From NCBI GenBank assembly GCA_016432265.1, contig CP066681.1:458342-522341 (forward strand): 64,000 bases of DNA, written 5' to 3'. This stretch comes from Micavibrio aeruginosavorus. GTDB taxonomy: Bacteria; Pseudomonadota; Alphaproteobacteria; Micavibrionales; Micavibrionaceae. Shown here piece by piece: positions 23,120-33,028 of this stretch. The notes beneath the pieces are model-generated. The model saw only the letters and a program-made list of their open reading frames with translations. It was not told where the DNA came from and did not search any database. How positions within the stretch are numbered: position 1 is the stretch's first letter; each line of letters begins with the position of its first letter. The position numbers and the translations under genes are program-made.

Positions 23120-23185
23120 AAACGCACGGCAGCCATTGATTTTCACATCGGTTTCTGGTTTTTATGACTGGTACTTCTCGCGGGC

Positions 23186-23259
23186 GCGGGTGTAGCTTAA
23201 TGGTAAAGCTCCAGCCTTCCAAGCTGGCTACGTGGGTTCGATTCCCATCACCCGCTCCA
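23186..23259 (+). tRNA. tRNA-Gly (anticodon TCC)
   Basis: GCGGGTG acceptor pairs with CACCCGC, then T and CCA. The anticodon loop CTTCCAA carries TCC. T-stem GTGGG/CCCAT with loop TTCGATT. The integrase gene lies immediately 3-prime. Confidence 0.9.
23240..23253. repeat. attL core: GATTCCCATCACCC within the 3-prime part of tRNA-Gly
   Basis: An exact 14-bp copy recurs at 28318-28331. Confidence 0.7.
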
Positions 23260-23382
23260 ACCGCCTCTTCACCGACATTCACCGCTGTTCACTGACGTTC
23301 GCAAAGTCATTGTAAAACAAAGGACTTCCAGGCGTTTTCTGTTCATGCTAGTATTTTTCCGTTCACCCGCGACCGCCAATTT

Positions 23383-23445
23383 TGGGGGCATCGATGGGGG
23401 CAGATCGAAAAACGTGGGGGCATCGAAGCCCCAAAATTGGGGGCA
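23383..23445. promoter_or_regulatory. Four TGGGGGCA iterons (candidate integrase arm-type sites) upstream of or overlapping the int start
   Basis: TGGGGGCA at 23383, 23395, 23415 and 23438. The last copy is embedded in the palindrome GCCCCAAAATTGGGGGC. Confidence 0.55.
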
Positions 23446-23447
23446 TC

Positions 23448-24677
23448 GTGAAGTTATCGGACAAAACATGCAAAGCGGCAAAATCCAAGGAAAAGCCTTA
23501 TAAACTTGCCGATGGCGGGGGTTTGTATCTCGAAGTCATGCCCAACGGCTCCAAATGCTGGCGGATGAAGTACCGTTACCTGGGCAAGGAAAAGCGTCTG
23601 GCGTTCGGCGTGTACCCCGTTATCAGCCTTGCCGATGCCCGCACGGCCCGCGAGAGGGCCAAGAAACTATTGGCGCAGGGGATCGATCCTTCCGGCGCGA
23701 AGAAGGAAGAGAAGCGGGAGGCGATCCGCAACGCTGAGAATACCTTCAAGGCCGTTGCGCTGGAATGGCACGAAAACCAGTTGTCCCGCTGGACACCCAC
23801 CCATGCCCAAAATGTCACCCGCCGTTTTGAGGTCGATATTTTCCCCTTTATTGGGAACCGGCCCATTGCGGAAATTGACCCGCCCGAATTGCTTGAGGAA
23901 GTCCTGCGGCGGATTGAAAAGCGCGGGGCATTGGATGTAACGGCGCGGGTGAAGCAGATTTGCGGACAGGTTTTCCGCTACGGCATTGCGACGGGCCGTT
24001 GCCAGCGCGATCCCACCGCCGACCTGAAAGGGGCATTGAAGGCCAATCAGACCCAGCATTTCGCGTGTCTCGATATTAAGGAAATGCCAGAGTTTTTGGA
24101 CAAGCTGGAAAAGAACGATGCGCGGCTTTACCATCGCACCCGCCGCGCCATCCGGCTGTTGATGCTCACCTTTGTCCGCACCAACGAATTGATTAACGCA
24201 ACATGGGACGAATTCGACCTTGATAACGCCCTTTGGGAAATCCCCGGCTGGCGGATGAAGATGCGGAACCCCCATATCGTACCGTTATCGCGGCAAGCCG
24301 TAGCCTTGCTGCGGGAGCAGAAGGAAGAAACGGGCCATCTCAATACGCCGTGGGTGTTTCCCAGCCAGGTACGCCCGAAAGACCCGATGAGCAATAACAC
24401 CATCCTGTTTGCCATCGGGCGCATGGGCTATAAAAAGCGCATGACCGGCCACGGCTTCCGCGCCCTTGCCATGTCGAATATCAAGGAAAAGCTCGGTTAC
24501 CGGCACGAGGTTGTTGACCGCCAGCTTGCTCACGCGCACAAAAACAAAATCGACCGCGCTTATGACCGGGCGCAGTTTCTTGATGAGCGCACCACGATGA
24601 TGCAAGAATGGGCGGATTATATGGATGCAGTGGCGAAGGGCGGCGGAAAAATCGTAAAATTCAAGAAAGCGGCATAA
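23448..24677 (+). CDS. int: Tyrosine recombinase / phage-type integrase (P4-like, with an N-terminal arm-DNA-binding domain)
   Basis: VKLSDKTCKAAKS...YKLADGGGLYLEV...GSKCWRMKYRYLGKEKRLAFGVYP matches the P4-type N-terminal domain. The C-terminal catalytic region has R...HGFR...H..R..Y-type residues (HGFRALAMSN...RQLAH..KNKIDRAYDR). The likely start is GTG at 23448; the track shows a TTG-extended ORF from 23382. Confidence 0.9.
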   Translation: MKLSDKTCKAAKSKEKPYKLADGGGLYLEVMPNGSKCWRMKYRYLGKEKRLAFGVYPVISLADARTARERAKKLLAQGIDPSGAKKEEKREAIRNAENTFKAVALEWHENQLSRWTPTHAQNVTRRFEVDIFPFIGNRPIAEIDPPELLEEVLRRIEKRGALDVTARVKQICGQVFRYGIATGRCQRDPTADLKGALKANQTQHFACLDIKEMPEFLDKLEKNDARLYHRTRRAIRLLMLTFVRTNELINATWDEFDLDNALWEIPGWRMKMRNPHIVPLSRQAVALLREQKEETGHLNTPWVFPSQVRPKDPMSNNTILFAIGRMGYKKRMTGHGFRALAMSNIKEKLGYRHEVVDRQLAHAHKNKIDRAYDRAQFLDERTTMMQEWADYMDAVAKGGGKIVKFKKAA

Positions 24678-25219
24678 TGGGTGCAAAGAAAAAACCCGCA
24701 GACAAGAATTTAAACATCGATCTGAAAGCCGGGTTTGGCTTTGATCCTGACTGGACGTTGGAACAGGCGATGGCAGCCGGTTCCGATGGGCCGTTAAGTC
24801 CATTCTGGCGATGGCAGCGTTGGCAACAGCTTGAAGAAGAATACAGGAAGAGATTTGAGGCCGGTGATAAAGAAGTTGTATTCACTGCCCTTCATGCTTG
24901 TGCTTGCTCCAATCTTTCCATGCCTGACTGGTTGGCCGATGCTTATGCCGCTGGTTTCCACAAGTGGGTGAATTATCGTGCGGGAAGTTTGGATGAGGCT
25001 TTCGATGTCGCAATTCCAAAAGGCAAACACCTTAATGCTCTACGGAAAAATCGTATGCTCCGTTTTGCCGTGCCGCTTGCGGTAGATAAGGCTCGGAATG
25101 AAGGCAATGCCATTCAACAGGGTCTTTTTGAGAAGGTCGGCAAGGAATTTGGAATCAGCGGTAGTTCTGCTAAAAACCTGTATTACAGGTACCGGAATAC
25201 ATTTCTAAAAAAATCTTAG
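24677..25219 (+). CDS. Hypothetical protein, translationally coupled (TAATG) to the integrase gene
   Basis: ATG at 24677 overlaps the int stop codon. It is about 180 aa with no recognisable motif. Confidence 0.45.
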   Translation: MGAKKKPADKNLNIDLKAGFGFDPDWTLEQAMAAGSDGPLSPFWRWQRWQQLEEEYRKRFEAGDKEVVFTALHACACSNLSMPDWLADAYAAGFHKWVNYRAGSLDEAFDVAIPKGKHLNALRKNRMLRFAVPLAVDKARNEGNAIQQGLFEKVGKEFGISGSSAKNLYYRYRNTFLKKS

Positions 25220-25288
25220 ATTTTTTAGAAATACAGGCTCCTGATTTCAGGGCAGTATATCTGAGAATGAAAATTTAGGAGCATCACG

Positions 25289-25612
25289 ATGATCCGCATT
25301 GTCGAATACATTGCCAAGAACGGCAAAAACCACTTTGCCGATTGGCTTGCCAAAATCCCTGCCAAACATGCAAACCGCGTGTCTGAGGCGCTCTACCGCA
25401 TGGAGATGGGCAATTTCGGCGATCATAAATCTGTCGGCGGCGGCGTCATGGAACGGCGCATATTTGGCAATCCAGCTTTGCGTGTTTATTACGCCTTGGA
25501 CGGTAAAGAACTTGTGATCCTGCTGGCGGGCGGCGGCAAGCACCGGCAGGACAAGGATATTGCCAAGGCCAAAGAGCTTTGGAAGGCTTATCAGGCTGAA
25601 AAGGCTAAATAA
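25289..25612 (+). CDS. Type II toxin, RelE/ParE superfamily (HigB-like 'addiction module killer' type)
   Basis: MIRIVEYIAKNGKNHFADWL...YRMEMGNFGDHKSVGGGVMERRIF...LRVYYALDGKELVILLAGGGKHRQDKDIAKAKELW is the characteristic pattern of this toxin family. A strong AGGAG RBS precedes it. It is upstream of the antitoxin, which is the HigBA gene order. Confidence 0.7.
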   Translation: MIRIVEYIAKNGKNHFADWLAKIPAKHANRVSEALYRMEMGNFGDHKSVGGGVMERRIFGNPALRVYYALDGKELVILLAGGGKHRQDKDIAKAKELWKAYQAEKAK

Positions 25613-25709
25613 TTCTATATTAACCCTTTTTTCTGGATTAATTGATAACATATATGTTAGTATCAGGATCAATGCCAGTGAACCTGTATGAAGGAAAAAG
25701 AGGCTTGTT

Positions 25710-26048
25710 ATGGCTCTGACACGTGATTTTAAAGAAACGATCATTGAACGCGCCAGAAAGGATAAAAAATTCCGGCGCGGCATGTTGACGCGGGGAATCG
25801 TGCTGCTGATTGCCGGTAGCGAAGAAGATGTGCAGGTAGGTAAATCTTTTATCCGCGATTACATCAATTCGACCATCGGCTTTCCGGCGTTGGCGAAGCG
25901 CACAGGCATTCCGAAAGAAAGCCTTATGCGTATGCTGGGGCCGAAAGGTAATCCCAGCCTGAGCAATCTCAATCAGGTCACGCATACCCTGCTGGAAAAC
26001 GAAGGGCTGAAAGGCGCAGACAATCTTTCCGTTTCAGTGCAGGGGTAA
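25710..26048 (+). CDS. HTH antitoxin (HigA-like 'addiction module antidote' type)
   Basis: MALTRDFKETIIERA... in the N-terminus, then an HTH-like region (SFIRDYINSTIGFPALAKRTGIPKESLMRML). It sits directly downstream of the toxin. Confidence 0.65.
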   Translation: MALTRDFKETIIERARKDKKFRRGMLTRGIVLLIAGSEEDVQVGKSFIRDYINSTIGFPALAKRTGIPKESLMRMLGPKGNPSLSNLNQVTHTLLENEGLKGADNLSVSVQG

Positions 26049-26545
26049 TGTCCAATTCCGATGACATGAGCGATGAAGAAAAAGCGGCGCAAGTCCGACT
26101 GGATAAATTGTGCAAAGAGCATAGCGTTGAAAAATTCAGTATTCGAGATGATGTCGGGCTAGTTTGCTGGCGCAATCTCATACAAGCCATGTGCGGCATG
26201 GATATAAACCGTCGCGAAAAGCCGGGCCGTAAGGGCAATTCAGATGATCTGGTAGATGAAGTCAGACGATTGTATGCCCTCTACACAGATTTTTCGAGAC
26301 TCGAAATTGACGAGAGCAAGGATAAAACAGATAAAAAAAGATATAAGAACCTGCCAGACTTCTATAAGTACCAAGTGTATGGCTTTATTTCCGATGATTT
26401 ATCAAAAAAATACGGCAAAGAAATCACCTCTAACCAGGTTAGAGGAATATTGAAGAACGATCACAACAGCGAACAGCTTAAACGACTAAACCTGTCGAAT
26501 ACGGCGCAAAATTCTTTTTCCTTCATACTTTTGCTCACATGCTGA
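26048..26545 (+). CDS. Hypothetical charged protein, start overlapping the antitoxin stop (TAATG)
   Basis: 165-aa ORF that is AT-rich and K/D/E-rich with no recognisable domain. Confidence 0.35.
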   Translation: MSNSDDMSDEEKAAQVRLDKLCKEHSVEKFSIRDDVGLVCWRNLIQAMCGMDINRREKPGRKGNSDDLVDEVRRLYALYTDFSRLEIDESKDKTDKKRYKNLPDFYKYQVYGFISDDLSKKYGKEITSNQVRGILKNDHNSEQLKRLNLSNTAQNSFSFILLLTC

Positions 26546-26964
26546 TAAAGCAGCTTTGCTTTGATTGCGGTTATGGAAGTGCGGCTCTGAGAGAACGTAT
26601 TTACTGCGAAAACAAATCTCAGGAAAACAAAATGCAGGGAATTCTTATCTATACTGCCGCAGGTGACTCAGAAGGAACTATGGGGGGTCTTGTAAGACAG
26701 GGAGAAGCTGGCAGGATTGAAAAAATAATACAACGCGCTTTACAGGATGCCATGTGGTGTGGTGCTGATCCGATATGCATAGAAAGCCCCGGCCAGGGAA
26801 CCGGCAACTCCAACCTTGCCGCATGCCATAATTGCTGCCTTCTGCCTGAAACCTCGTGCGAACAGGGGAATCGGTTTCTTGATAGAGCCTTGCTTGTGGG
26901 ATTGCCTGAAGATCGAACAAAAGGCTTTTTCTATCGTTTGCTCGCACAAAAGAAAGCCCCATAA
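26539..26964 (+). CDS. Cys-cluster protein resembling the C-terminal zinc-binding MZB/DUF1998 module of helicase-associated defence proteins; possibly a gene fragment
   Basis: CFDCGYGS ... AACHNCCLLPETSCEQGNRFLDRALLVGL gives a CxxC...CxxC...SCxxGNxxLDR arrangement as in DUF1998 C-termini. There is no helicase part upstream, and it overlaps the previous ORF in another frame. Confidence 0.4.
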   Translation: MLIKQLCFDCGYGSAALRERIYCENKSQENKMQGILIYTAAGDSEGTMGGLVRQGEAGRIEKIIQRALQDAMWCGADPICIESPGQGTGNSNLAACHNCCLLPETSCEQGNRFLDRALLVGLPEDRTKGFFYRLLAQKKAP

Positions 26965-27075
26965 GCCGCTTTTGGTTGATACGATAGTGAATCGCACATT
27001 TTTCTGCGGCTGTTATATAATCGACAATAGAAAGAAGACGAAAATTGCCGCTCAATAGATGCTGGAGTAACCAAG

Positions 27076-27627
27076 ATGCTTCCTATCAAGGACTGGAGCG
27101 AAATAGACAACAAAGAGTTTGATGTAAAACGCACTTTTGAAAAGAGCGAACTCGCCAAGGATCAACTCAGAACAGCAATATGGCTGTTTTTAAACCGTAT
27201 TGATTTTGCCTCCGCGATAACACTGGCGGGTGCTGCGGGGAACATTCTTCATGCACTTGTCGAGCACCAGAACAAGCAGCCCACACTTGAATATGGCCGT
27301 CTCTTGTGCAGCAAGCTAATCGGACATGTGCCGGGAAGAAGCAAATATCTTAAGAATTTTGGTGATTTAACCGGCATAAACCGATTGAAACACATGAGCG
27401 CAGAGTGTCCAGATACAATTGAGATTGATCTTGAGAAATGTGCTGAAACAGCTATCACAAGAGCGGTGTTGGATTTTATAAAGCTTTATGGAGATGCTGA
27501 GGCTCGCAGTAATCCGGCTGTAAATTCTTTTATGCAGTGGTTATGGGTTCTCCACGGTGAGAGAATGATGAAAGAATATGGGCCGTTACTTGAGGGGCTA
27601 AAAGAAGATGGGTTTAAAACAGCATAA
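27076..27627 (+). CDS. Hypothetical protein, paralog A of a tandem pair
   Basis: Shares DQLR.AIWLF...S.ITLAGAA...L...VE...INRLKHM... with the next ORF. Lies in AT-rich DNA. Confidence 0.5.
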   Translation: MLPIKDWSEIDNKEFDVKRTFEKSELAKDQLRTAIWLFLNRIDFASAITLAGAAGNILHALVEHQNKQPTLEYGRLLCSKLIGHVPGRSKYLKNFGDLTGINRLKHMSAECPDTIEIDLEKCAETAITRAVLDFIKLYGDAEARSNPAVNSFMQWLWVLHGERMMKEYGPLLEGLKEDGFKTA

Positions 27628-28081
27628 ACTTATAGACTTGGCAGAGGATCAGTTACGGTCTTCAATCTGCTTATTCTTCAAGGGCGATCTTGTTTCTTCC
27701 ATTACTCTGGCAGGGGCGGCGGATGTTTTGCTTTGCCGGATTGTCGAAAATCACGGCGAAGAAAGTTTTACAGCGCATGTACTGAAGTCAGAGAACGATC
27801 CAAGCAAGACAATCCCTCAAATGGGGCGTGAGATTAACGATATGTTTCATATTAATGCATTGAAACACATGGACTCTAAAGAAGACAGCACTGTCACTAT
27901 GAATTTGCGGGAAGCCGCTATAGGCGCAATTCTCAAGGCTCTTCCCAATTATAATATGCTACGCGGCAAGGATAACGATTTTATCAAATCATTTTTGATG
28001 TGGATTAGGGTAAATCTTGATCCAGAGGTCTATAACGTGAACTGTGACCCTAATTGGCAATCTAAAGAAAAGTCAGCTTAG
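27608..28081 (+). CDS. Hypothetical protein, paralog B of a tandem pair
   Basis: Clear collinear similarity to 27076-27627 (EDQLRSSICLFF...SSITLAGAADVLL...HINALKHMD). Confidence 0.5.
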   Translation: MGLKQHKLIDLAEDQLRSSICLFFKGDLVSSITLAGAADVLLCRIVENHGEESFTAHVLKSENDPSKTIPQMGREINDMFHINALKHMDSKEDSTVTMNLREAAIGAILKALPNYNMLRGKDNDFIKSFLMWIRVNLDPEVYNVNCDPNWQSKEKSA

Positions 28082-28239
28082 TTTGTTGATTTTGAAATTT
28101 TGTCGGGCGGCTAGGCACGTGTTTGCGCTGTAAGAATAGGGGTACCCCGGAGGGGTGGGGATCGCAGTTGAATCATCTCGGCGGATGTGGTTTATACATG
28201 GACGTTCGCCCTCGTTCATTACGGCCTCAAAATCGAATG

Positions 28240-28259
28240 TGGGGGCAGATTTGGGGGCA
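28240..28259. promoter_or_regulatory. Two TGGGGGCA iterons on the attR-proximal arm of the island
   Basis: tgtGGGGGCAgatTTGGGGGCAg, about 60 nt before the attR core. Confidence 0.5.
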
Positions 28260-28317
28260 GACGGGAAATCCACATCGGGCTAAACTGATTCCGATCAAAG
28301 CCTTAGAAATTAAATGT

Positions 28318-28331
28318 GATTCCCATCACCC
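28318..28331. repeat. attR core: GATTCCCATCACCC, a direct repeat of the tRNA-Gly 3-prime segment
   Basis: Exact 14/14 match to 23240-23253. The flanking sequence does not continue the tRNA. Confidence 0.7.
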
Positions 28332-28409
28332 AGATTTTGAAAAATAAAGATATCTAGCAGTTATTCTGCTCGTGCTAAACTCTTATTGTTCACGGGCAAT
28401 CGAGAGTTT

Positions 28410-28471
28410 CGGGGGCAGAATTGGGGGTATCCCTGAAACCGTGGGGGCAAGATACTCCCGAAAATGGGGGT
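28410..28471. promoter_or_regulatory. Second iteron cluster (CGGGGGCA, TGGGGGTA, TGGGGGCA, TGGGGGTA), homologous to the int upstream region
   Basis: Same spacing pattern as 23383-23445. The following ~50 nt are about 80 % identical to the int 5-prime end. Confidence 0.5.
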
Positions 28472-28474
28472 AAG

Positions 28475-28702
28475 ATGAAGCTATCCGACAAGACATGCAA
28501 AGCCGTAAAATCTGCGGATCGCCTCGACAACCCGGACATCGATACAATCATATACACGGGCACGGACGACGGCGATCAGGACGTCGTCGAGTTCGGGCTG
28601 CATTCCTACATCAGGCCGCATCACAACTTCATCCGCGCAGCGGATGCCCGCATAGTATGCGCAAACGATAACGACGAAATGGAGTATTCATATGCGGTTT
28701 AA
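28475..28702 (+). pseudogene. Integrase 5-prime remnant: first ~15 codons (MKLSDKTCKAVKS) homologous to the int N-terminus, then unrelated sequence
   Basis: MKLSDKTCKAVKS aligns with VKLSDKTCKAAKS of the intact integrase, after which similarity ends. Confidence 0.5.
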
Positions 28703-29117
28703 TTTTAAGGCCTGTCTGGTATTGCTTTGTGCCGCCCTTGCGTTGGGCGGGTGTTACCCGTCCAAAGTGACCGATCCGAACGATCCGAGGTTCGATGTAA
28801 CTAAATTCTCCTTTGAAGATTACAAAACTGAAGATGAACTTTTAAAAACTTTGAACGCCCTGTTTCCCGAGGGTACAACAAAACAAAAAGTTGATGACGT
28901 GTTATTAAAGTCAGCTAGACTAGATATGTTCCAAAATGTAGGGCCAGATGGTGGAATTTATATAGTTTATAAAAAATCCAAACACGATCCAAGCTCTAAT
29001 CATCCACTAAAGACAGCTAGATTCTTATACAACGAATCTCATGAGGTGATGGATATAGAAACAAGCTTTATGGACGGAATATCTATAAAGTATTTTATAG
29101 GAGAAAGGATCCAGTAA
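28692..29117 (+). CDS. Putative lipoprotein (signal peptide plus LGGC lipobox)
   Basis: MRFNFKACLVLLCAALALGGCYPS is a lipoprotein signal. The DNA is AT-rich. Confidence 0.5.
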   Translation: MRFNFKACLVLLCAALALGGCYPSKVTDPNDPRFDVTKFSFEDYKTEDELLKTLNALFPEGTTKQKVDDVLLKSARLDMFQNVGPDGGIYIVYKKSKHDPSSNHPLKTARFLYNESHEVMDIETSFMDGISIKYFIGERIQ

Positions 29118-29767
29118 TGACAACTGAAATTTATGTGCAAACAACTCCTAACATAACTTTTCATCCATTACAGTTTCTCCCTCCTGTCTCCTTGCCTTTT
29201 GGAAGGCATATGGCTATTTGGATTGTACGAGACGGGGAGACAATTATTTTAAATGCCTACGCAAGTGAGCATAAGAACATTGAGGTTCCTAATCCGCTTA
29301 GTGAAGAGTGGGGGAACTTGGTTGTTGAAAAATTTGTAGTTGAAGACATTCCTACAAACCAAACAATTGAAGATATGAATCTTAACAAGCTAAACTTGAC
29401 GGATGTGGAAGCGGCAACTGCTGCGAGTGCAATCCTGAGTTATTATAATAATCTTGGGCAGCTTTTAGATATAGAAGGGCGACACATAATTGATACTGGA
29501 TTAGGGTATGCGCCTGTTGACGGGCCTAATAGCAATTCAATAGCCAATTCTTTTCTCACCCTGATGAATGTGGACTATAACACGCTTGATCTATACGAAG
29601 ACGGGGACAGTTCTGAATGGCATTATGCGGTATGGGATCATACGGCCCACGACCATGCTGTGGATGCCGCTGGTAATCATACCTTGCAGGGTTTCAATGG
29701 CGGTGAAATCAGGCGATTATATACCCCTTATACGGATTTTTCTTATTACGGTTTTTTCACGGTTTGA
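29117..29767 (+). CDS. Hypothetical protein
   Basis: 216-aa ORF in AT-rich DNA, with its ATG overlapping the previous stop (TAATG). Confidence 0.4.
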   Translation: MTTEIYVQTTPNITFHPLQFLPPVSLPFGRHMAIWIVRDGETIILNAYASEHKNIEVPNPLSEEWGNLVVEKFVVEDIPTNQTIEDMNLNKLNLTDVEAATAASAILSYYNNLGQLLDIEGRHIIDTGLGYAPVDGPNSNSIANSFLTLMNVDYNTLDLYEDGDSSEWHYAVWDHTAHDHAVDAAGNHTLQGFNGGEIRRLYTPYTDFSYYGFFTV

Positions 29768-29785
29768 AATTTTAAACGATATTTC

Positions 29786-30358: not shown

Positions 30359-30495
30359 AATCACTTGCCAAAGCCGGGAGAGCCTTCTATATCCATAAGC
30401 GGAAGGCTGACGCGGGCGCGCGTATCGCCAATCCGGTCAGGGCCGAGAGGCAGCAGCCGTAACGAATTTCGCCGGGTCGTGTTCAGCCTTCCACC

Positions 30496-30810
30496 TTATT
30501 TTTTCTTGCCCTTCCCGACATTCAGACTTTTGTGCAAATCTTGCATCTGCTCGATATAGTCTTTGAGCATATCCTTAAGCGCGTTGCGCAGGTAAGGTTC
30601 GAAATCGGCATCGCCGTGGCTGGACAGGGAGATGATGCGATCATAAAGGGCGCGGGTTTCCTGGCTGACCCCGAGCGTGATCACATGATCGCTTAATCTG
30701 TCATCTATGATGTCGCGCACGAATCCGCTAATATTCACATTCATTTCCTGCAGCCGGTCGTGCTGCTCCCTACGTAGCATCAAACAAACGCTTTTCAAAT
30801 CGGTACTCAT
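30496..30810 (-). CDS. Putative ribbon-helix-helix (CopG-like) transcriptional regulator, divergent from the flotillin-like gene
   Basis: The small protein has an N-terminal KSVCLMLRREQHDRLQEMNVNISGFVRDII stretch consistent with an RHH fold. The true start may be the internal Met (MLRREQ). Confidence 0.4.
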   Translation of the reverse strand: MSTDLKSVCLMLRREQHDRLQEMNVNISGFVRDIIDDRLSDHVITLGVSQETRALYDRIISLSSHGDADFEPYLRNALKDMLKDYIEQMQDLHKSLNVGKGKKK

Positions 30811-30877: not shown

Positions 30878-30938
30878 TTATATATAACTATATATATTTA
30901 TTGTAAATTAACTAAATCATATATATAGTTATATATAA
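30878..30938. promoter_or_regulatory. 19-bp perfect inverted repeat TTATATATAACTATATATA / TATATATAGTTATATATAA separated by 23 bp, in the divergent promoter region
   Basis: Read directly at 30878-30896 and 30920-30938, in an ~85 % AT spacer between the RHH gene and the flotillin-like gene. Confidence 0.8.
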
Positions 30939-30973: not shown

Positions 30974-33028
30974 ATGGATATGAACAACGTACTGGAGATT
31001 GTCATGCAGTGGGGTGGCGGTATTGTTGCCGTTTTTATCCTGTTGCTAATCCTGAGCAAAATTCTGGTCAATGTGGGCGCTGATGAACTGGCGGTAACCG
31101 AGCGCCGCTTTTTCGGGGTGGCGCTGGAACGGGGGCGTGTCTTTGCCATGCCGGGGCAGATCGGTTTGCAAGCTCGCTACCTGCCGCCGGGGTTGCATGT
31201 GATTCCGTGGCCGCTGGTCAGGGTCGTGTATAAACCCACCTTTCTGAGCATCAATGCGGATGAATTGGGGATTGTCGAGGCCACGGATGGTGTGCCGCTC
31301 TCGGCGGGCCGTATTTTCGCCGATGACGTTGCCGGGGTAACACATAACAACTTTCAGGATCCTGTAGGGTTCCTGGCCAAGGGGGGCATTCGCGGAAAGC
31401 AGTTGCGTTTTCTGACCAACGGCACCTTTAAGATACATCCTTATATGTTCAAAGTTACCAAGATCAAGAAGACTTATATTCCGGAAGGGTCGATCGGTGT
31501 GATCACCGCGCTTGACGGGGCGCCGCTTGAACCCGGTCAGTTGCTTGGGCGCAGCACTGAGAATCATGAAAATTTCCAGCGTGCCGAGGACTTCCTCAAG
31601 AATGGCGGGCAAAAAGGGCCGCAGATCGACTTCCTGCGCCCGGGTACCTACAACATCAACACCGAGATTTTCAAGGTCGAGATTCATCCGGCGATCCAGA
31701 TTCCGGAACGTCAGATCGGCGTGATTGAGGCGCTGGACGGCTTGCCCATGGACAAGAACGAGGTCGTGGCTTCGACGCCCGATGGCCATAATAACTTCCA
31801 GGACGGTCAGAAATTCCTGAACAATGGCGGCAAGCGAGGCCCGCAGGAAAAGATTCTGACCCCCGGCACTTACTACATCAATCCTTACCTGTTTACTGTA
31901 TCGTGGCAGCCGCAGACCTTGATTGAGCAAGGCGAGGCGGGGGTTCTGATTTCGAACATCGGTCTTGATCCTTCGGGGCTTGAGCATGATGGCACGGAAA
32001 TCGAGAGCGATGACAAATATCACGCCCGCTATGTGGTGCCGGCCGGTTATCGCGGCATCCAAAAAGATGTTCTCGGGCCGGGTGCCTACAACATCAACCC
32101 GATGGCTTATCGCGTTGTTATCATCCAGACACGGACGCGGTCGCTTGATTGGAGCGCCGAGCGCATGCAGAATCGTGCGCCGGAGGCCAATATCTTCGGG
32201 CCCTTCCAGGTCGTCTCGCATGACGGTTTCCCGATGCAGATCGAGGTGCGTTGTCAGTATCGCATCCAGCCGCAGAACGCGCCTTATATCGTGCAAAAGC
32301 TGGGGTCGGTTCGTGAACTGGAAAGCAATGTTATCCATCCGCAGATCGACGGTATCTTCCGGGCGCAGGTTTCCCGCTCTCCCGCGATTGCCTATCAGCA
32401 AAACCGGGCGGAGGAGCAAAAAGCCGCTGAGGAGGCCGTACGGCACGATCTGGTCAATTACCGCGTCGATGTGGTTTCAGTGATGATCACCAATATCGTC
32501 TTGCCGGAAGAATTGATGCATACCACGCAGCAGAAAAATCTGGCCGAACAGGAAAAATCGATGTTCGACGCGAAGCAGCAGGCCGAGCAACGCCGCATCG
32601 AATTCGAGAAAACCAAAACCGAGGCCGATGCTCAGGTCAGTATTATTACCGCGGAAGCCGGGATCAAGGTGGCGCAGCACGAAGCCCGTCAGGTCGAGGA
32701 GCGCGCGCGCGGCGACGCCAACCGTATCCGTATGCTGGCTGAAGCCGATGCGATGAAAACCCAGCAGGTGGGGGATGCCGAGGCCGGGGTCATCCGCACC
32801 AAAGGTGAGGCGCAGGCCAAAGCCTATCGCGATCAGGTTGACGCTCTGACTGCGCAGGGCGTGACCACGGTCGAAGTGATGAAAGCAATTTCCGCCGCCG
32901 GTCTTAAAATCACGCCGGATATTCACGTCAGTGGTACGCCTGGCGGTGGAGGCGACAGCGGCGGGCTGGTGCAGGTGTTGCTGGCGCAGATGGTTCAGAA
33001 CAAAGCGAGCGGCACCAACGCCCAGTAG
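30974..33028 (+). CDS. Flotillin-like SPFH/band-7 family membrane protein (YqiK-like) with four internal ~60-aa repeats
   Basis: N-terminal TM helix, an SPFH-like core, and a C-terminal Glu/Ala/Gln-rich coiled-coil flotillin region (AEQEKSMFDAKQQAEQRRIEFEKTKTEADAQ...). Repeats ...ALDG.P.......NFQ....FL.NGG..G.Q...L.PGTY.INP..F.V occur four times. Confidence 0.8.
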   Translation: MDMNNVLEIVMQWGGGIVAVFILLLILSKILVNVGADELAVTERRFFGVALERGRVFAMPGQIGLQARYLPPGLHVIPWPLVRVVYKPTFLSINADELGIVEATDGVPLSAGRIFADDVAGVTHNNFQDPVGFLAKGGIRGKQLRFLTNGTFKIHPYMFKVTKIKKTYIPEGSIGVITALDGAPLEPGQLLGRSTENHENFQRAEDFLKNGGQKGPQIDFLRPGTYNINTEIFKVEIHPAIQIPERQIGVIEALDGLPMDKNEVVASTPDGHNNFQDGQKFLNNGGKRGPQEKILTPGTYYINPYLFTVSWQPQTLIEQGEAGVLISNIGLDPSGLEHDGTEIESDDKYHARYVVPAGYRGIQKDVLGPGAYNINPMAYRVVIIQTRTRSLDWSAERMQNRAPEANIFGPFQVVSHDGFPMQIEVRCQYRIQPQNAPYIVQKLGSVRELESNVIHPQIDGIFRAQVSRSPAIAYQQNRAEEQKAAEEAVRHDLVNYRVDVVSVMITNIVLPEELMHTTQQKNLAEQEKSMFDAKQQAEQRRIEFEKTKTEADAQVSIITAEAGIKVAQHEARQVEERARGDANRIRMLAEADAMKTQQVGDAEAGVIRTKGEAQAKAYRDQVDALTAQGVTTVEVMKAISAAGLKITPDIHVSGTPGGGGDSGGLVQVLLAQMVQNKASGTNAQ

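What the first reader, a model, noticed from the sequence alone, without database searches (positions are those of the whole stretch)
23240..28331. Integrase-mediated genomic island at tRNA-Gly(TCC), bounded by a 14-bp direct repeat
GATTCCCATCACCC occurs inside the 3-prime part of tRNA-Gly (23240-23253) and again at 28318-28331. The P4-type integrase sits right after the tRNA, and the ~5 kb between the repeats is low-GC cargo. This is the classic signature of a site-specific island whose att core is the T-arm/acceptor segment.
Basis: seen in the sequence. Interest (0 to 1): 0.6.

Follow-up and report, generated by a model that had tools for sequence, protein, structure and literature searches.

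The report
Small genomic island at tRNA-Gly gene
A 5-kb piece of foreign DNA carrying its own integrase sits in the end of a glycine tRNA gene, next to the stump of an older, related insertion; this is a well-supported but ordinary example of how bacteria pick up DNA.

Summary
tRNA-Gly(TCC) lies at 23186-23259, and GATTCCCATCACCC (tRNA positions 57-70) occurs only at 23240-23253 and 28318-28331. An intact P4/CP4-57-type tyrosine integrase (23448-24677) follows the tRNA.

The island reading is supported by three new lines of evidence:
- A sister-strain contig (98-99.7% identical) joins the tRNA end directly to the sequence right of the second repeat, so the about 5 kb is absent there.
- A MAG element whose integrase is 91% identical shares the integrase arm and a 240-bp right arm that ends at the same tRNA-derived repeat. 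Its cargo is different.
- 69 of 81 integrase relatives sit just downstream of a tRNA gene.

- The second repeat is not the end of the foreign DNA. It is followed by a second integrase-proximal arm and 15 codons of a related integrase, the stump of an older island that probably ends near 29770.
- The repeat stops at tRNA position 70, the point where the Islander authors report small deletions in displaced tRNA fragments.
- 41 bp expected at the right site are missing, so precise excision would break the tRNA.

The cargo is a toxin-antitoxin pair, a DrmB fragment and unknown ORFs. This is a new member of a known kind, of low interest.

The parts
23186..23259 (+). tRNA-Gly(TCC) gene, the integration target. 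It is intact and forms the attL side.
   Evidence: ARAGORN; Rfam RF00005, 74 bits
23240..23253 (+). Left copy of the 14-bp direct repeat (tRNA positions 57-70)
23268..23302 (+). Four pentamers spaced exactly 10 bp apart just after the tRNA end: TTCAC at 23268, 23278 and 23288, and TTCGC at 23298. They are probably protein-binding sites of the attachment region. Bases 23254-23287 resemble the sister strain L006, and from 23288 on the sequence resembles the L010 island.
   Evidence: Sequence; alignment with L010, L011, L018 and L006; other family members have phased CTTCC or ATCC repeats at the same place
23383..23445 (+). Four TGGGGGCA repeats that end 2 nt before the integrase start codon. They are inferred arm-type integrase binding sites in the integrase-proximal arm.
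   Evidence: the same G-rich motif occurs in both arms in 12 of 19 family members
23448..24677 (+). Tyrosine integrase of 409 aa with a GTG start (ATG at the same place in L010, L011 and L006). Catalytic residues R244, H335, R338, H362 and Y372 are present.
   Evidence: Pfam PF13356 2.6e-28, PF22022 3.2e-36, PF00589 6.4e-20; NCBIfam PRK09692 1.1e-78, below its cut-off; PDB N-terminal and core-binding domains of CP4-like and CPS-53 integrases; motif positions
24677..25219 (+). 180-aa ORF of unknown function, 93% identical in the L010 island
   Evidence: no Pfam, NCBIfam, PADLOC or PHROG hit
25289..26048 (+). Toxin-antitoxin pair: a RelE/ParE-family (Gp49/HI1419-type) toxin at 25289-25612 and an HI1420-type antidote at 25710-26048
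   Evidence: TIGR02683 1.8e-25; TIGR02684 1.7e-05, below its cut-off; Pfam Gp49; 95% and 99% identical in L010
26048..26545 (+). 165-aa ORF of unknown function; a backbone gene with weak homologues in the L010 and L011 islands
26539..26964 (+). C-terminal fragment (about 120 of about 600 aa) of a DrmB (DISARM) protein, which is a gene remnant
   Evidence: NCBIfam NF038324 8.5e-52, profile positions 485-603 of 604; PADLOC DrmB 1e-36; Pfam MZB
27076..28081 (+). Two paralogous ORFs of unknown function (183 aa and 157 aa, 32% identical to each other)
   Evidence: no family hits
28089..28317 (+). Right arm of the island, with two TGGGGGCAGA repeats at 28240-28261. It is conserved with the right arm of the L011 island.
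   Evidence: 85% identity to L011 20473-20712; motif positions
28318..28331 (+). Right copy of the 14-bp repeat, the displaced tRNA fragment (positions 57-70). It is the middle att site of the array. The next 41 nt expected from the sister strain are missing.
28332..28519 (+). Stump of an older related island: a homologous integrase-proximal arm (TGGGGGCA/TGGGGGTA repeats at 28411-28474) plus the first 15 codons of a related integrase (28475-28519)
   Evidence: Alignment with 23260-23492 and with L010 and L011
28520..29767 (+). Probable leftover cargo of the older island, at 43% GC: a 141-aa lipoprotein-like ORF and a 216-aa ORF, both of unknown function. The right end is not marked by any repeat.
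   Evidence: GC values; no tRNA fragment or right-arm homologue downstream; present in both strains
30400..30496 (+). SRP RNA gene (ffs), the first certain core gene to the right. It sets the outer limit for the foreign DNA.
   Evidence: Rfam RF00169, 48 bits against a gathering score of 40

Best explanation
Window 23260-28331 is a small integrative genomic island. It was placed in the 3' end of the tRNA-Gly(UCC) gene by its own P4/CP4-57-type tyrosine integrase, in a chromosome that already carried the decayed stump of a related island at the same tRNA. How it works is inferred from the anatomy and from what is known of lambda/P4-type integrases. The circular element carries an attP made of three parts: a right arm with two G-rich arm-type sites; a core that copies the tRNA from the T-loop to the 3' end; and a left arm with four phased TTCAC repeats and four TGGGGGCA sites abutting the integrase start. 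The N-terminal arm-binding domain of the integrase would hold the arm sites, and the core-binding and catalytic domains would exchange strands within tRNA positions about 57-69. Integration then leaves an intact tRNA at attL and a displaced tRNA fragment at the far end. The present copy is degraded. It keeps the integrase, both arms and a toxin-antitoxin pair. It lacks the primase or ATPase modules of its relatives, carries a DrmB gene fragment, and has a right att site that stops at tRNA position 70. Recombination inside the 14-mer would leave a tRNA with a broken acceptor stem, so the island is probably fixed in this lineage.
For: Shown directly:
- The tRNA, the exact two-copy repeat and the integrase domains are present, and the catalytic residues are in place.
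- There is a presence/absence polymorphism. L006 joins the tRNA end to window 28332 onwards without the island. L006 begins at tRNA position 50, which is tRNA sequence that the island's right arm does not contain.
- The ends are conserved modules with exchangeable cargo. L010 is 91% identical in DNA over 23184-26113. L011 shares the integrase (91% aa) and the right arm (85%), ending at GATTCCCGTCACC.
- 69 of 81 relatives lie less than 600 bp downstream of a tRNA, and all relatives at 66% identity or more that have an adjacent tRNA sit at tRNA-Gly(TCC).
- In 12 of 19 elements a G-rich motif is repeated in the integrase-proximal arm and recurs left of attR, whatever the target tRNA.
- The second arm and the integrase stump follow the second repeat.
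- Cargo GC is 45% against 54-56% in the flanks.

Known from the literature: the combination of an intact tDNA and a displaced fragment, tandem arrays, and a small deletion 3 bp upstream of the discriminator are all described for tRNA islands (PMC4383910; PMC7192596).
Against: - The indel relative to L006 (5037 bp) does not coincide with the repeat spacing (5078 bp). The right site lacks 41 nt (GCTCCA plus 35 nt) that a clean crossover in the 14-mer would have left, and the first about 30 nt after the tRNA are L006-like rather than L010-like. At least one extra event, a deletion or a conversion, has to be assumed.
- Only one contig from one sample shows the island-free state, and it is a short-read assembly that starts inside the tRNA.
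- No circular junction (attP) was found.
- No excisionase gene was recognised.
- The binding-site roles of the repeats and the crossover position are inferred, not tested.
Confidence: 0.85

Rival explanations
1. The island entered by recombination at a secondary site about 35 nt downstream of the tRNA, at the end of the TTCAC repeats of the resident stump, and not inside the tRNA. On this view the 14-mer at 28318 is only the core copy carried on the island's right arm.
For: The simplest comparison with L006 places the insertion between ...GTTCACT(A/G)A and GATTTTG. It needs no extra deletion and explains why 23254-23287 is L006-like while 23288 onwards is L010-like.
Against: The junctions share only TCAC or a single A, with no 6-8 bp of identity as tyrosine recombinases need. 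The incoming attP would have lacked GCTCCA and two TTCAC repeats, unlike L010 and L011. In relatives the repeat continues through the tRNA 3' end, as expected for a crossover in the tRNA.
Confidence: 0.12
2. The repeat is a chance match. The integrase and neighbouring genes are old, vertically inherited residents, so this is not a discrete mobile unit.
For: The repeat is only 14 bp. No circular form or excisionase was seen. The cargo is partly decayed.
Against: The chance expectation is 0.0004-0.015. The repeat lies exactly where the homologous right arm of L011 ends. L006 lacks the segment. The family-wide pattern of a tRNA plus its displaced fragment also argues against chance.
Confidence: 0.02
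3. The element is a phage satellite or a mobilizable or conjugative element that is still active, rather than a fixed remnant.
For: The integrase is intact, both arms are complete and the toxin-antitoxin module is conserved. Relatives carry a primase-polymerase-like gene (L010) or an AAA_25 ATPase (L011), typical of replicating or mobilizable islands.
Against: The window's copy has no replication, relaxase, transfer or capsid-related gene. It carries a truncated DrmB gene. Its right att site lacks tRNA positions 71-76, so precise excision would damage the tRNA.
Confidence: 0.1

Closest known systems
tRNA/tmRNA-integrated genomic islands as defined by Islander/TIGER (Hudson et al. 2015, PMC4383910; Mageeney et al. 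2020, PMC7192596)
   Same: An intact tDNA at one end, a same-orientation displaced 3' tDNA fragment at the other end, and a tyrosine integrase gene next to the intact tDNA. The size is within 2-200 kb. An uninterrupted reference exists in a related strain. The fragment stops at the 'damage' point 3 bp upstream of the discriminator. A tandem neighbour is present.
   Different: The host is an uncultured alphaproteobacterium, with a Micavibrio-like neighbourhood. The island is very small and gene-poor. The tandem partner has lost its integrase and its distal fragment, so it would not be called by those programs. The missing stretch at the displaced fragment is 41 nt rather than 1-3 nt.
P4 / CP4-57 / CPS-53-type integrases of enterobacterial islands and satellites
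   Same: Three-domain architecture: an N-terminal arm-binding domain (DUF4102), a core-binding domain and a catalytic domain. The gene lies directly next to the target tRNA. Arm-type repeats occur on both sides of the core.
   Different: The similarity is at domain level only. The NCBIfam PRK09692 score is 265 bits against a cut-off of 434. No P4-like replication or helper-exploitation genes are present in this copy.
Tandem accretion and decay of site-specific islands (ICESt1-related elements, Pavlovic et al. 2004; Dehalococcoides ssrA islands, PMC3146451)
   Same: Successive integrations at the same RNA-gene end, internal att sites, older members losing their integration module, and hybrid arms between neighbours.
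   Different: Only two members here, and the older one is reduced to about 1.4 kb. No evidence of joint mobilisation.

Membership tests
tDNA-integrated genomic island (Islander criteria) | Full-length tRNA/tmRNA gene at one end | tested here: met
   tRNA-Gly(TCC) at 23186-23259
tDNA-integrated genomic island (Islander criteria) | Displaced fragment of the same tDNA, in the same orientation, on the 3' side for a 3' fragment | tested here: met
   14 nt covering tRNA positions 57-70 at 28318-28331 on the + strand. It ends at the damage site allowed by Islander (PMC4383910).
tDNA-integrated genomic island (Islander criteria) | Tyrosine integrase gene inside the interval, and a size of 2-200 kb | tested here: met
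   Integrase at 23448-24677; 5078 bp between the repeats
Integrative element by comparative criterion (TIGER) | A related genome with an uninterrupted site whose junction matches the element ends | tested here: inconclusive
   L006 lacks the element, but the breakpoints are offset by 41 bp from the repeat. Only one short-read contig is available.
Integrative element (functional definition) | Excision to a circle with attP and a restored attB | not testable with these tools
   No attP-type contig was seen among exact-protein look-ups.
P4/CP4-57-type tyrosine integrase | Arm-DNA-bind_3 (DUF4102), core-binding and catalytic domains, with the R..HxxR..H..Y catalytic residues | tested here: met
   Pfam; PDB domain hits 3ju0, 3jtz and 2kj8; R244, H335, R338, H362 and Y372
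P4/CP4-57-type tyrosine integrase | Score above the curated NCBIfam cut-off for PRK09692 | tested here: not met
   264.6 bits against a cut-off of 434. It is a relative at domain level, not a member of that curated model.
Tandem island array (Islander definition) | Each member has its own integrase gene and its own tDNA fragment | tested here: not met
   The second member keeps only the arm and 15 integrase codons. There is no distal fragment. It is a decayed former array.
ICE / IME / phage satellite | Relaxase, conjugation, replication or capsid-interference genes | tested here: not met
   No such hits in Pfam, NCBIfam, PADLOC or PHROGs for any island ORF. The relatives L010 and L011 do carry primase-like or AAA_25 genes.
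DISARM defence system | Complete drmA, drmB and drmC plus a methylase or drmD/E | tested here: not met
   Only the last about 120 aa of DrmB are present.

The most novel reading that the evidence does not exclude
In this integrase family the displaced tRNA fragment is regularly damaged. In 16 of 22 informative loci 1-3 nt are missing at tRNA positions 70-72, and in this window 41 nt are missing from position 71. The damage may be made by the integrase at its own cleavage site. If so, it would act as a lock: excision would leave a broken, possibly essential tRNA gene, so cells that lose the island are selected against.
Probability: 0.12. Interest if true: 0.45.

Novelty: new member of a known kind. 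Interest (0 to 1): 0.2.

Why it matters
It adds one small, well-delimited island to a family of tRNA-targeting elements that appears to be widespread in Micavibrio-like and other uncultured Alphaproteobacteria. It also provides a two-strain example of gain next to an older stump. Three side products may be useful. The first is a picture of the attachment region conserved across the family: phased pentamers beside the tRNA, and G-rich arm sites on both arms that overlap the integrase start. The second is a fresh set of examples of the known 'damage' at tRNA position 70. The third is a DrmB fragment showing that the island once carried, or recombined with, defence genes. None of this changes current understanding.

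Tried and rejected
- I looked for a third copy of the tRNA fragment or a second right arm that would mark the end of the older island. None was found.
- I looked for orthologous loci with an entirely empty tRNA-Gly site, using a metagenome scan with the upstream SAM_HAT-like protein. Relatives reach only 57% identity or less. Most lack a tRNA-Gly at this place, so the native junction could not be read. In one relative (L091) dnaX lies about 5.5 kb after the same upstream genes.
- Exact-protein look-ups for the integrase, the last island gene and the integrase stump found only the window-like allele (samples SRR12113419, SRR12113421 and SRR12113422) and the single L006 allele (SRR36123268). No attP junction turned up.
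- I considered taking the contig breaks at the tRNA end in L001, L003 and L004 as evidence of population heterogeneity. I rejected this because a shared 30-mer with other tRNA-Gly genes in a metagenome explains the breaks equally well.
- I tried to explain the missing 41 nt by microhomology-mediated deletion or by a single crossover. No clean scheme fits.
- PADLOC, PHROGs, NCBIfam and Pfam gave nothing for five island ORFs.
- Williams 2002 and Williams 2003 could not be read in the held library.
Full report
**1. Observation**

ARAGORN finds tRNA-Gly(TCC) at 23186-23259 on the + strand, and Rfam agrees. The 14-mer GATTCCCATCACCC occurs at 23240-23253 and 28318-28331 and nowhere else in the window, even with two mismatches. 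The longer tRNA 3' end has no further copy with three mismatches. From base composition, 0.0004 chance copies of this 14-mer are expected, and 0.015 chance recurrences of any 14-mer of the tRNA. Counted from the 3' end, the repeat covers tRNA positions 57-70: the last four T-loop bases, the 3' T-stem strand and five acceptor-stem bases.

The ORF after the tRNA is a complete tyrosine integrase.
- Pfam finds Arm-DNA-bind_3, Phage_int_M and Phage_integrase.
- NCBIfam PRK09692 matches at 1.1e-78, below its curated cut-off.
- The N-terminal and core-binding domains match solved domains of CP4-like and CPS-53 integrases.
- The catalytic residues R244, H335, R338, H362 and Y372 are present.
- The start codon is GTG at 23448. 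L010, L011 and L006 have ATG at the same place.

GC content is 55.8% in the integrase gene, 45.2% in the cargo (24678-28081) and 54-56% in the flanks. Only the cargo, not the whole 5 kb, is low in GC.

**2. Evidence that this is a discrete inserted element**

(a) Sister strain. Exact-protein look-ups returned Logan contigs. Those from samples SRR12113419, SRR12113421 and SRR12113422 are 100% identical to the window. One contig from another sample, L006 (SRR36123268), is 98.4-99.7% identical downstream. L006 begins inside the tRNA at position 50, which is sequence the island's right arm does not have. It runs through the tRNA 3' end and 35 further nt, and then continues directly with AGATTTTGAAAAATAAAG, which is window 28332 onwards. 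The integrase and cargo are absent from it.

(b) Relatives. A scan of one genome per species with the integrase gave 80 loci, mostly Alphaproteobacteria MAGs, many labelled Micavibrio.
- L010 (97% aa) is 91% identical in DNA over window 23184-26113, which covers the tRNA, the integrase, the 180-aa ORF and the toxin-antitoxin pair. After that it differs.
- L011 (91% aa) shares the integrase region and, about 11 kb further on, a right arm 85% identical to window 28089-28330. That arm ends at AAATGTGATTCCCGTCACC, the tRNA-derived repeat of that genome.
- The two ends are therefore conserved modules around exchangeable cargo.

(c) Family habit. 69 of 81 integrases have a tRNA gene less than 600 bp upstream on the same strand, and many tRNA types are used. 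All relatives at 66% identity or more that have an adjacent tRNA sit at tRNA-Gly(TCC).

**3. What else is there**

The second repeat is not the border with native DNA. Bases 28332-28519 align with the integrase-proximal arm of the island. They include the TGGGGGCA/TGGGGGTA repeats and the first 15 codons of an integrase (MKLSDKTCKAVKSAD), after which homology stops. This is the stump of an older, related island at the same tRNA, and L006 shows it adjacent to the tRNA. Its leftover cargo is a 141-aa lipoprotein-like ORF and a 216-aa ORF, at 43% GC. GC rises to 56% from about 29768. The SRP RNA gene at 30400-30496 is the first certain core gene. No repeat marks the stump's right end.

**4. Anatomy of the attachment region**

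Immediately after the tRNA come four pentamers spaced exactly 10 bp apart: TTCAC three times, then TTCGC, at 23268-23302. About 80 nt further on are four TGGGGGCA repeats (23383-23445) that end 2 nt before the start codon. The right arm has two TGGGGGCAGA repeats 60-75 nt before the displaced fragment.

In 12 of 19 family members with a mapped right end, a G-rich motif of the type (T/A)GGGG(G)(C/T)A is repeated in the left arm and recurs in the 200 nt left of attR, whatever tRNA is targeted. This fits arm-type sites read by the conserved N-terminal domain. That is an inference, not a test. Sites overlapping the integrase start suggest autoregulation, also inferred.

**5. The right site is damaged**

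In the family, the displaced fragment starts at tRNA position about 57 (about 62 in some) and runs to the tRNA 3' end plus 1-4 nt. Of the 22 loci where a displaced fragment could be read, counted by hand (tally):
- 10 lack one base at position 70;
- 3 lack two bases and 3 lack about three bases at positions 70-72;
- 2 are intact;
- 4, including the window, stop at about position 69-70.

This is a known feature. [quoted passage not shown] I could not read Williams 2003.

In the window the repeat ends at position 70, and the next 41 nt present in L006 (GCTCCA plus 35 nt) are missing. As a result the repeat spacing is 5078 bp but the indel relative to L006 is 5037 bp. In addition, the first about 30 nt after the tRNA in the window resemble L006 (38 of 41), whereas from 23288 onwards the arm is 95% like L010, whose own first 30 nt differ.

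The best reading is in two steps:
- integration in the tRNA of an L006-like ancestor;
- then loss of 41 bp from the middle site starting at the family's damage point, plus conversion between the neighbouring homologous arms.

Hybrid formation within arrays is described in PMC7192596. The rival is insertion at a secondary site at the end of the stump's TTCAC repeats. It needs no deletion, but it has no junction identity and requires an atypical attP. This point is unresolved.

A consequence follows directly from the sequence. Recombination within the 14-mer would give ...CACCC|AGATTTT, destroying acceptor pairs 1-72 and 2-71. Precise excision would therefore damage the tRNA.

**6. Cargo**

- A RelE/ParE (HI1419-type) toxin with its HI1420-type antidote.
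- The last about 120 residues of a DrmB (DISARM) protein, with no other DISARM gene.
- A 165-aa backbone ORF shared weakly with L010 and L011.
- Two paralogous unknown ORFs.
- A 180-aa unknown ORF.

Relatives carry a primase-polymerase-like gene (L010) or an AAA_25 ATPase and an SMC-like protein (L011). The window's island has neither, and no excisionase was recognised. It is a reduced derivative.

**7. Comparison and verdict**

All Islander criteria are met: an intact tDNA, a displaced same-orientation 3' fragment, an internal tyrosine integrase and a suitable size. The comparative (TIGER-type) criterion is met in substance, with a 41-bp offset. The element is not an ICE, IME, satellite or defence system by gene content. 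The older neighbour no longer qualifies as an array member.

The thing itself is a new member of a well-known kind, in a poorly studied host. The upstream synteny of glucokinase, deacetylase, SAM_HAT-like gene and tRNA-Gly is shared at about 50-58% aa identity with Micavibrio-like MAGs. Interest is low.

The most novel reading still open is that the recurrent damage at positions 70-72 is made by the integrase and locks the island in. I give it a low probability, and the underlying observation is already in the literature.

Noticed in passing
window 30400-30496 (+): Bacterial small SRP RNA gene (ffs), Rfam RF00169 at 48 bits. It lies between the DUF3335 gene and a 104-aa ORF on the minus strand, upstream of dnaX (33201) and ybaB (34891).
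   Followed up: partly
window about 29060-29400 versus L006 about 790-1090: Two otherwise 98-100% identical strains differ in a mosaic patch of about 65% identity with a 30-nt indel. The patch spans the end of the 141-aa lipoprotein-like ORF and the start of the 216-aa ORF. It is either a recombination patch or a fast-evolving region.
   Followed up: no
L011, L014, L040, L047, L048, L050, L082, L015, L079, L080, L088, L089, L074, L069, L051, L066 (attR sites listed): The displaced tRNA fragments of this integrase family lack 1-3 nt at tRNA positions 70-72 in 16 of 22 informative loci, across Gly, Met, Val, Phe, Ala and Tyr tRNAs. This matches the 'damage' mentioned in the Islander paper.
   Followed up: partly
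L026 9697-11719: A tRNA-Gly(TCC), an integrase and a 13-nt tRNA-derived repeat only about 500 bp after the integrase stop, with the G-rich motif in both arms. This looks like an integrase-only element of about 1.9 kb.
   Followed up: no
L035 14846-14990, L051 16990-17100, L047 14897-14960: Further arrays or array remnants in the family. The first 40-65 nt after the tRNA end are 93-95% identical between attL and the internal site even where the rest of the arms diverge, as in the window compared with L006.
   Followed up: no
window 26539-26964: An isolated C-terminal fragment of a DrmB (DISARM) gene inside the island, with no other DISARM component in the window region examined.
   Followed up: partly
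window 30878-30897 / 30919-30938: A perfect 20-nt AT-only inverted repeat (TTATATATAACTATATATAT) in the divergent intergenic region between the 104-aa ORF and the SPFH/Band-7 gene. It may be an operator.
   Followed up: no
window 31410-32098: The 684-aa SPFH/Band-7 protein gene contains internal direct repeats with a period of about 222 nt upstream of the Band_7 domain, suggesting a repeated N-terminal domain.
   Followed up: no
L001 7600, L003 2852, L004 1: Short-read contigs of the source samples break exactly at the 3' end of the tRNA-Gly gene. This is compatible with heterogeneity at the site, but equally with a k-mer shared with other tRNA-Gly genes.
   Followed up: partly
window 28200-28225: The right arm also carries TTCGC/TTCAT pentamers 10 bp apart (GACGTTCGCCCTCGTTCAT). 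The stretch GACGTTCGC is identical to part of the left-arm repeats at 23294-23302.
   Followed up: no
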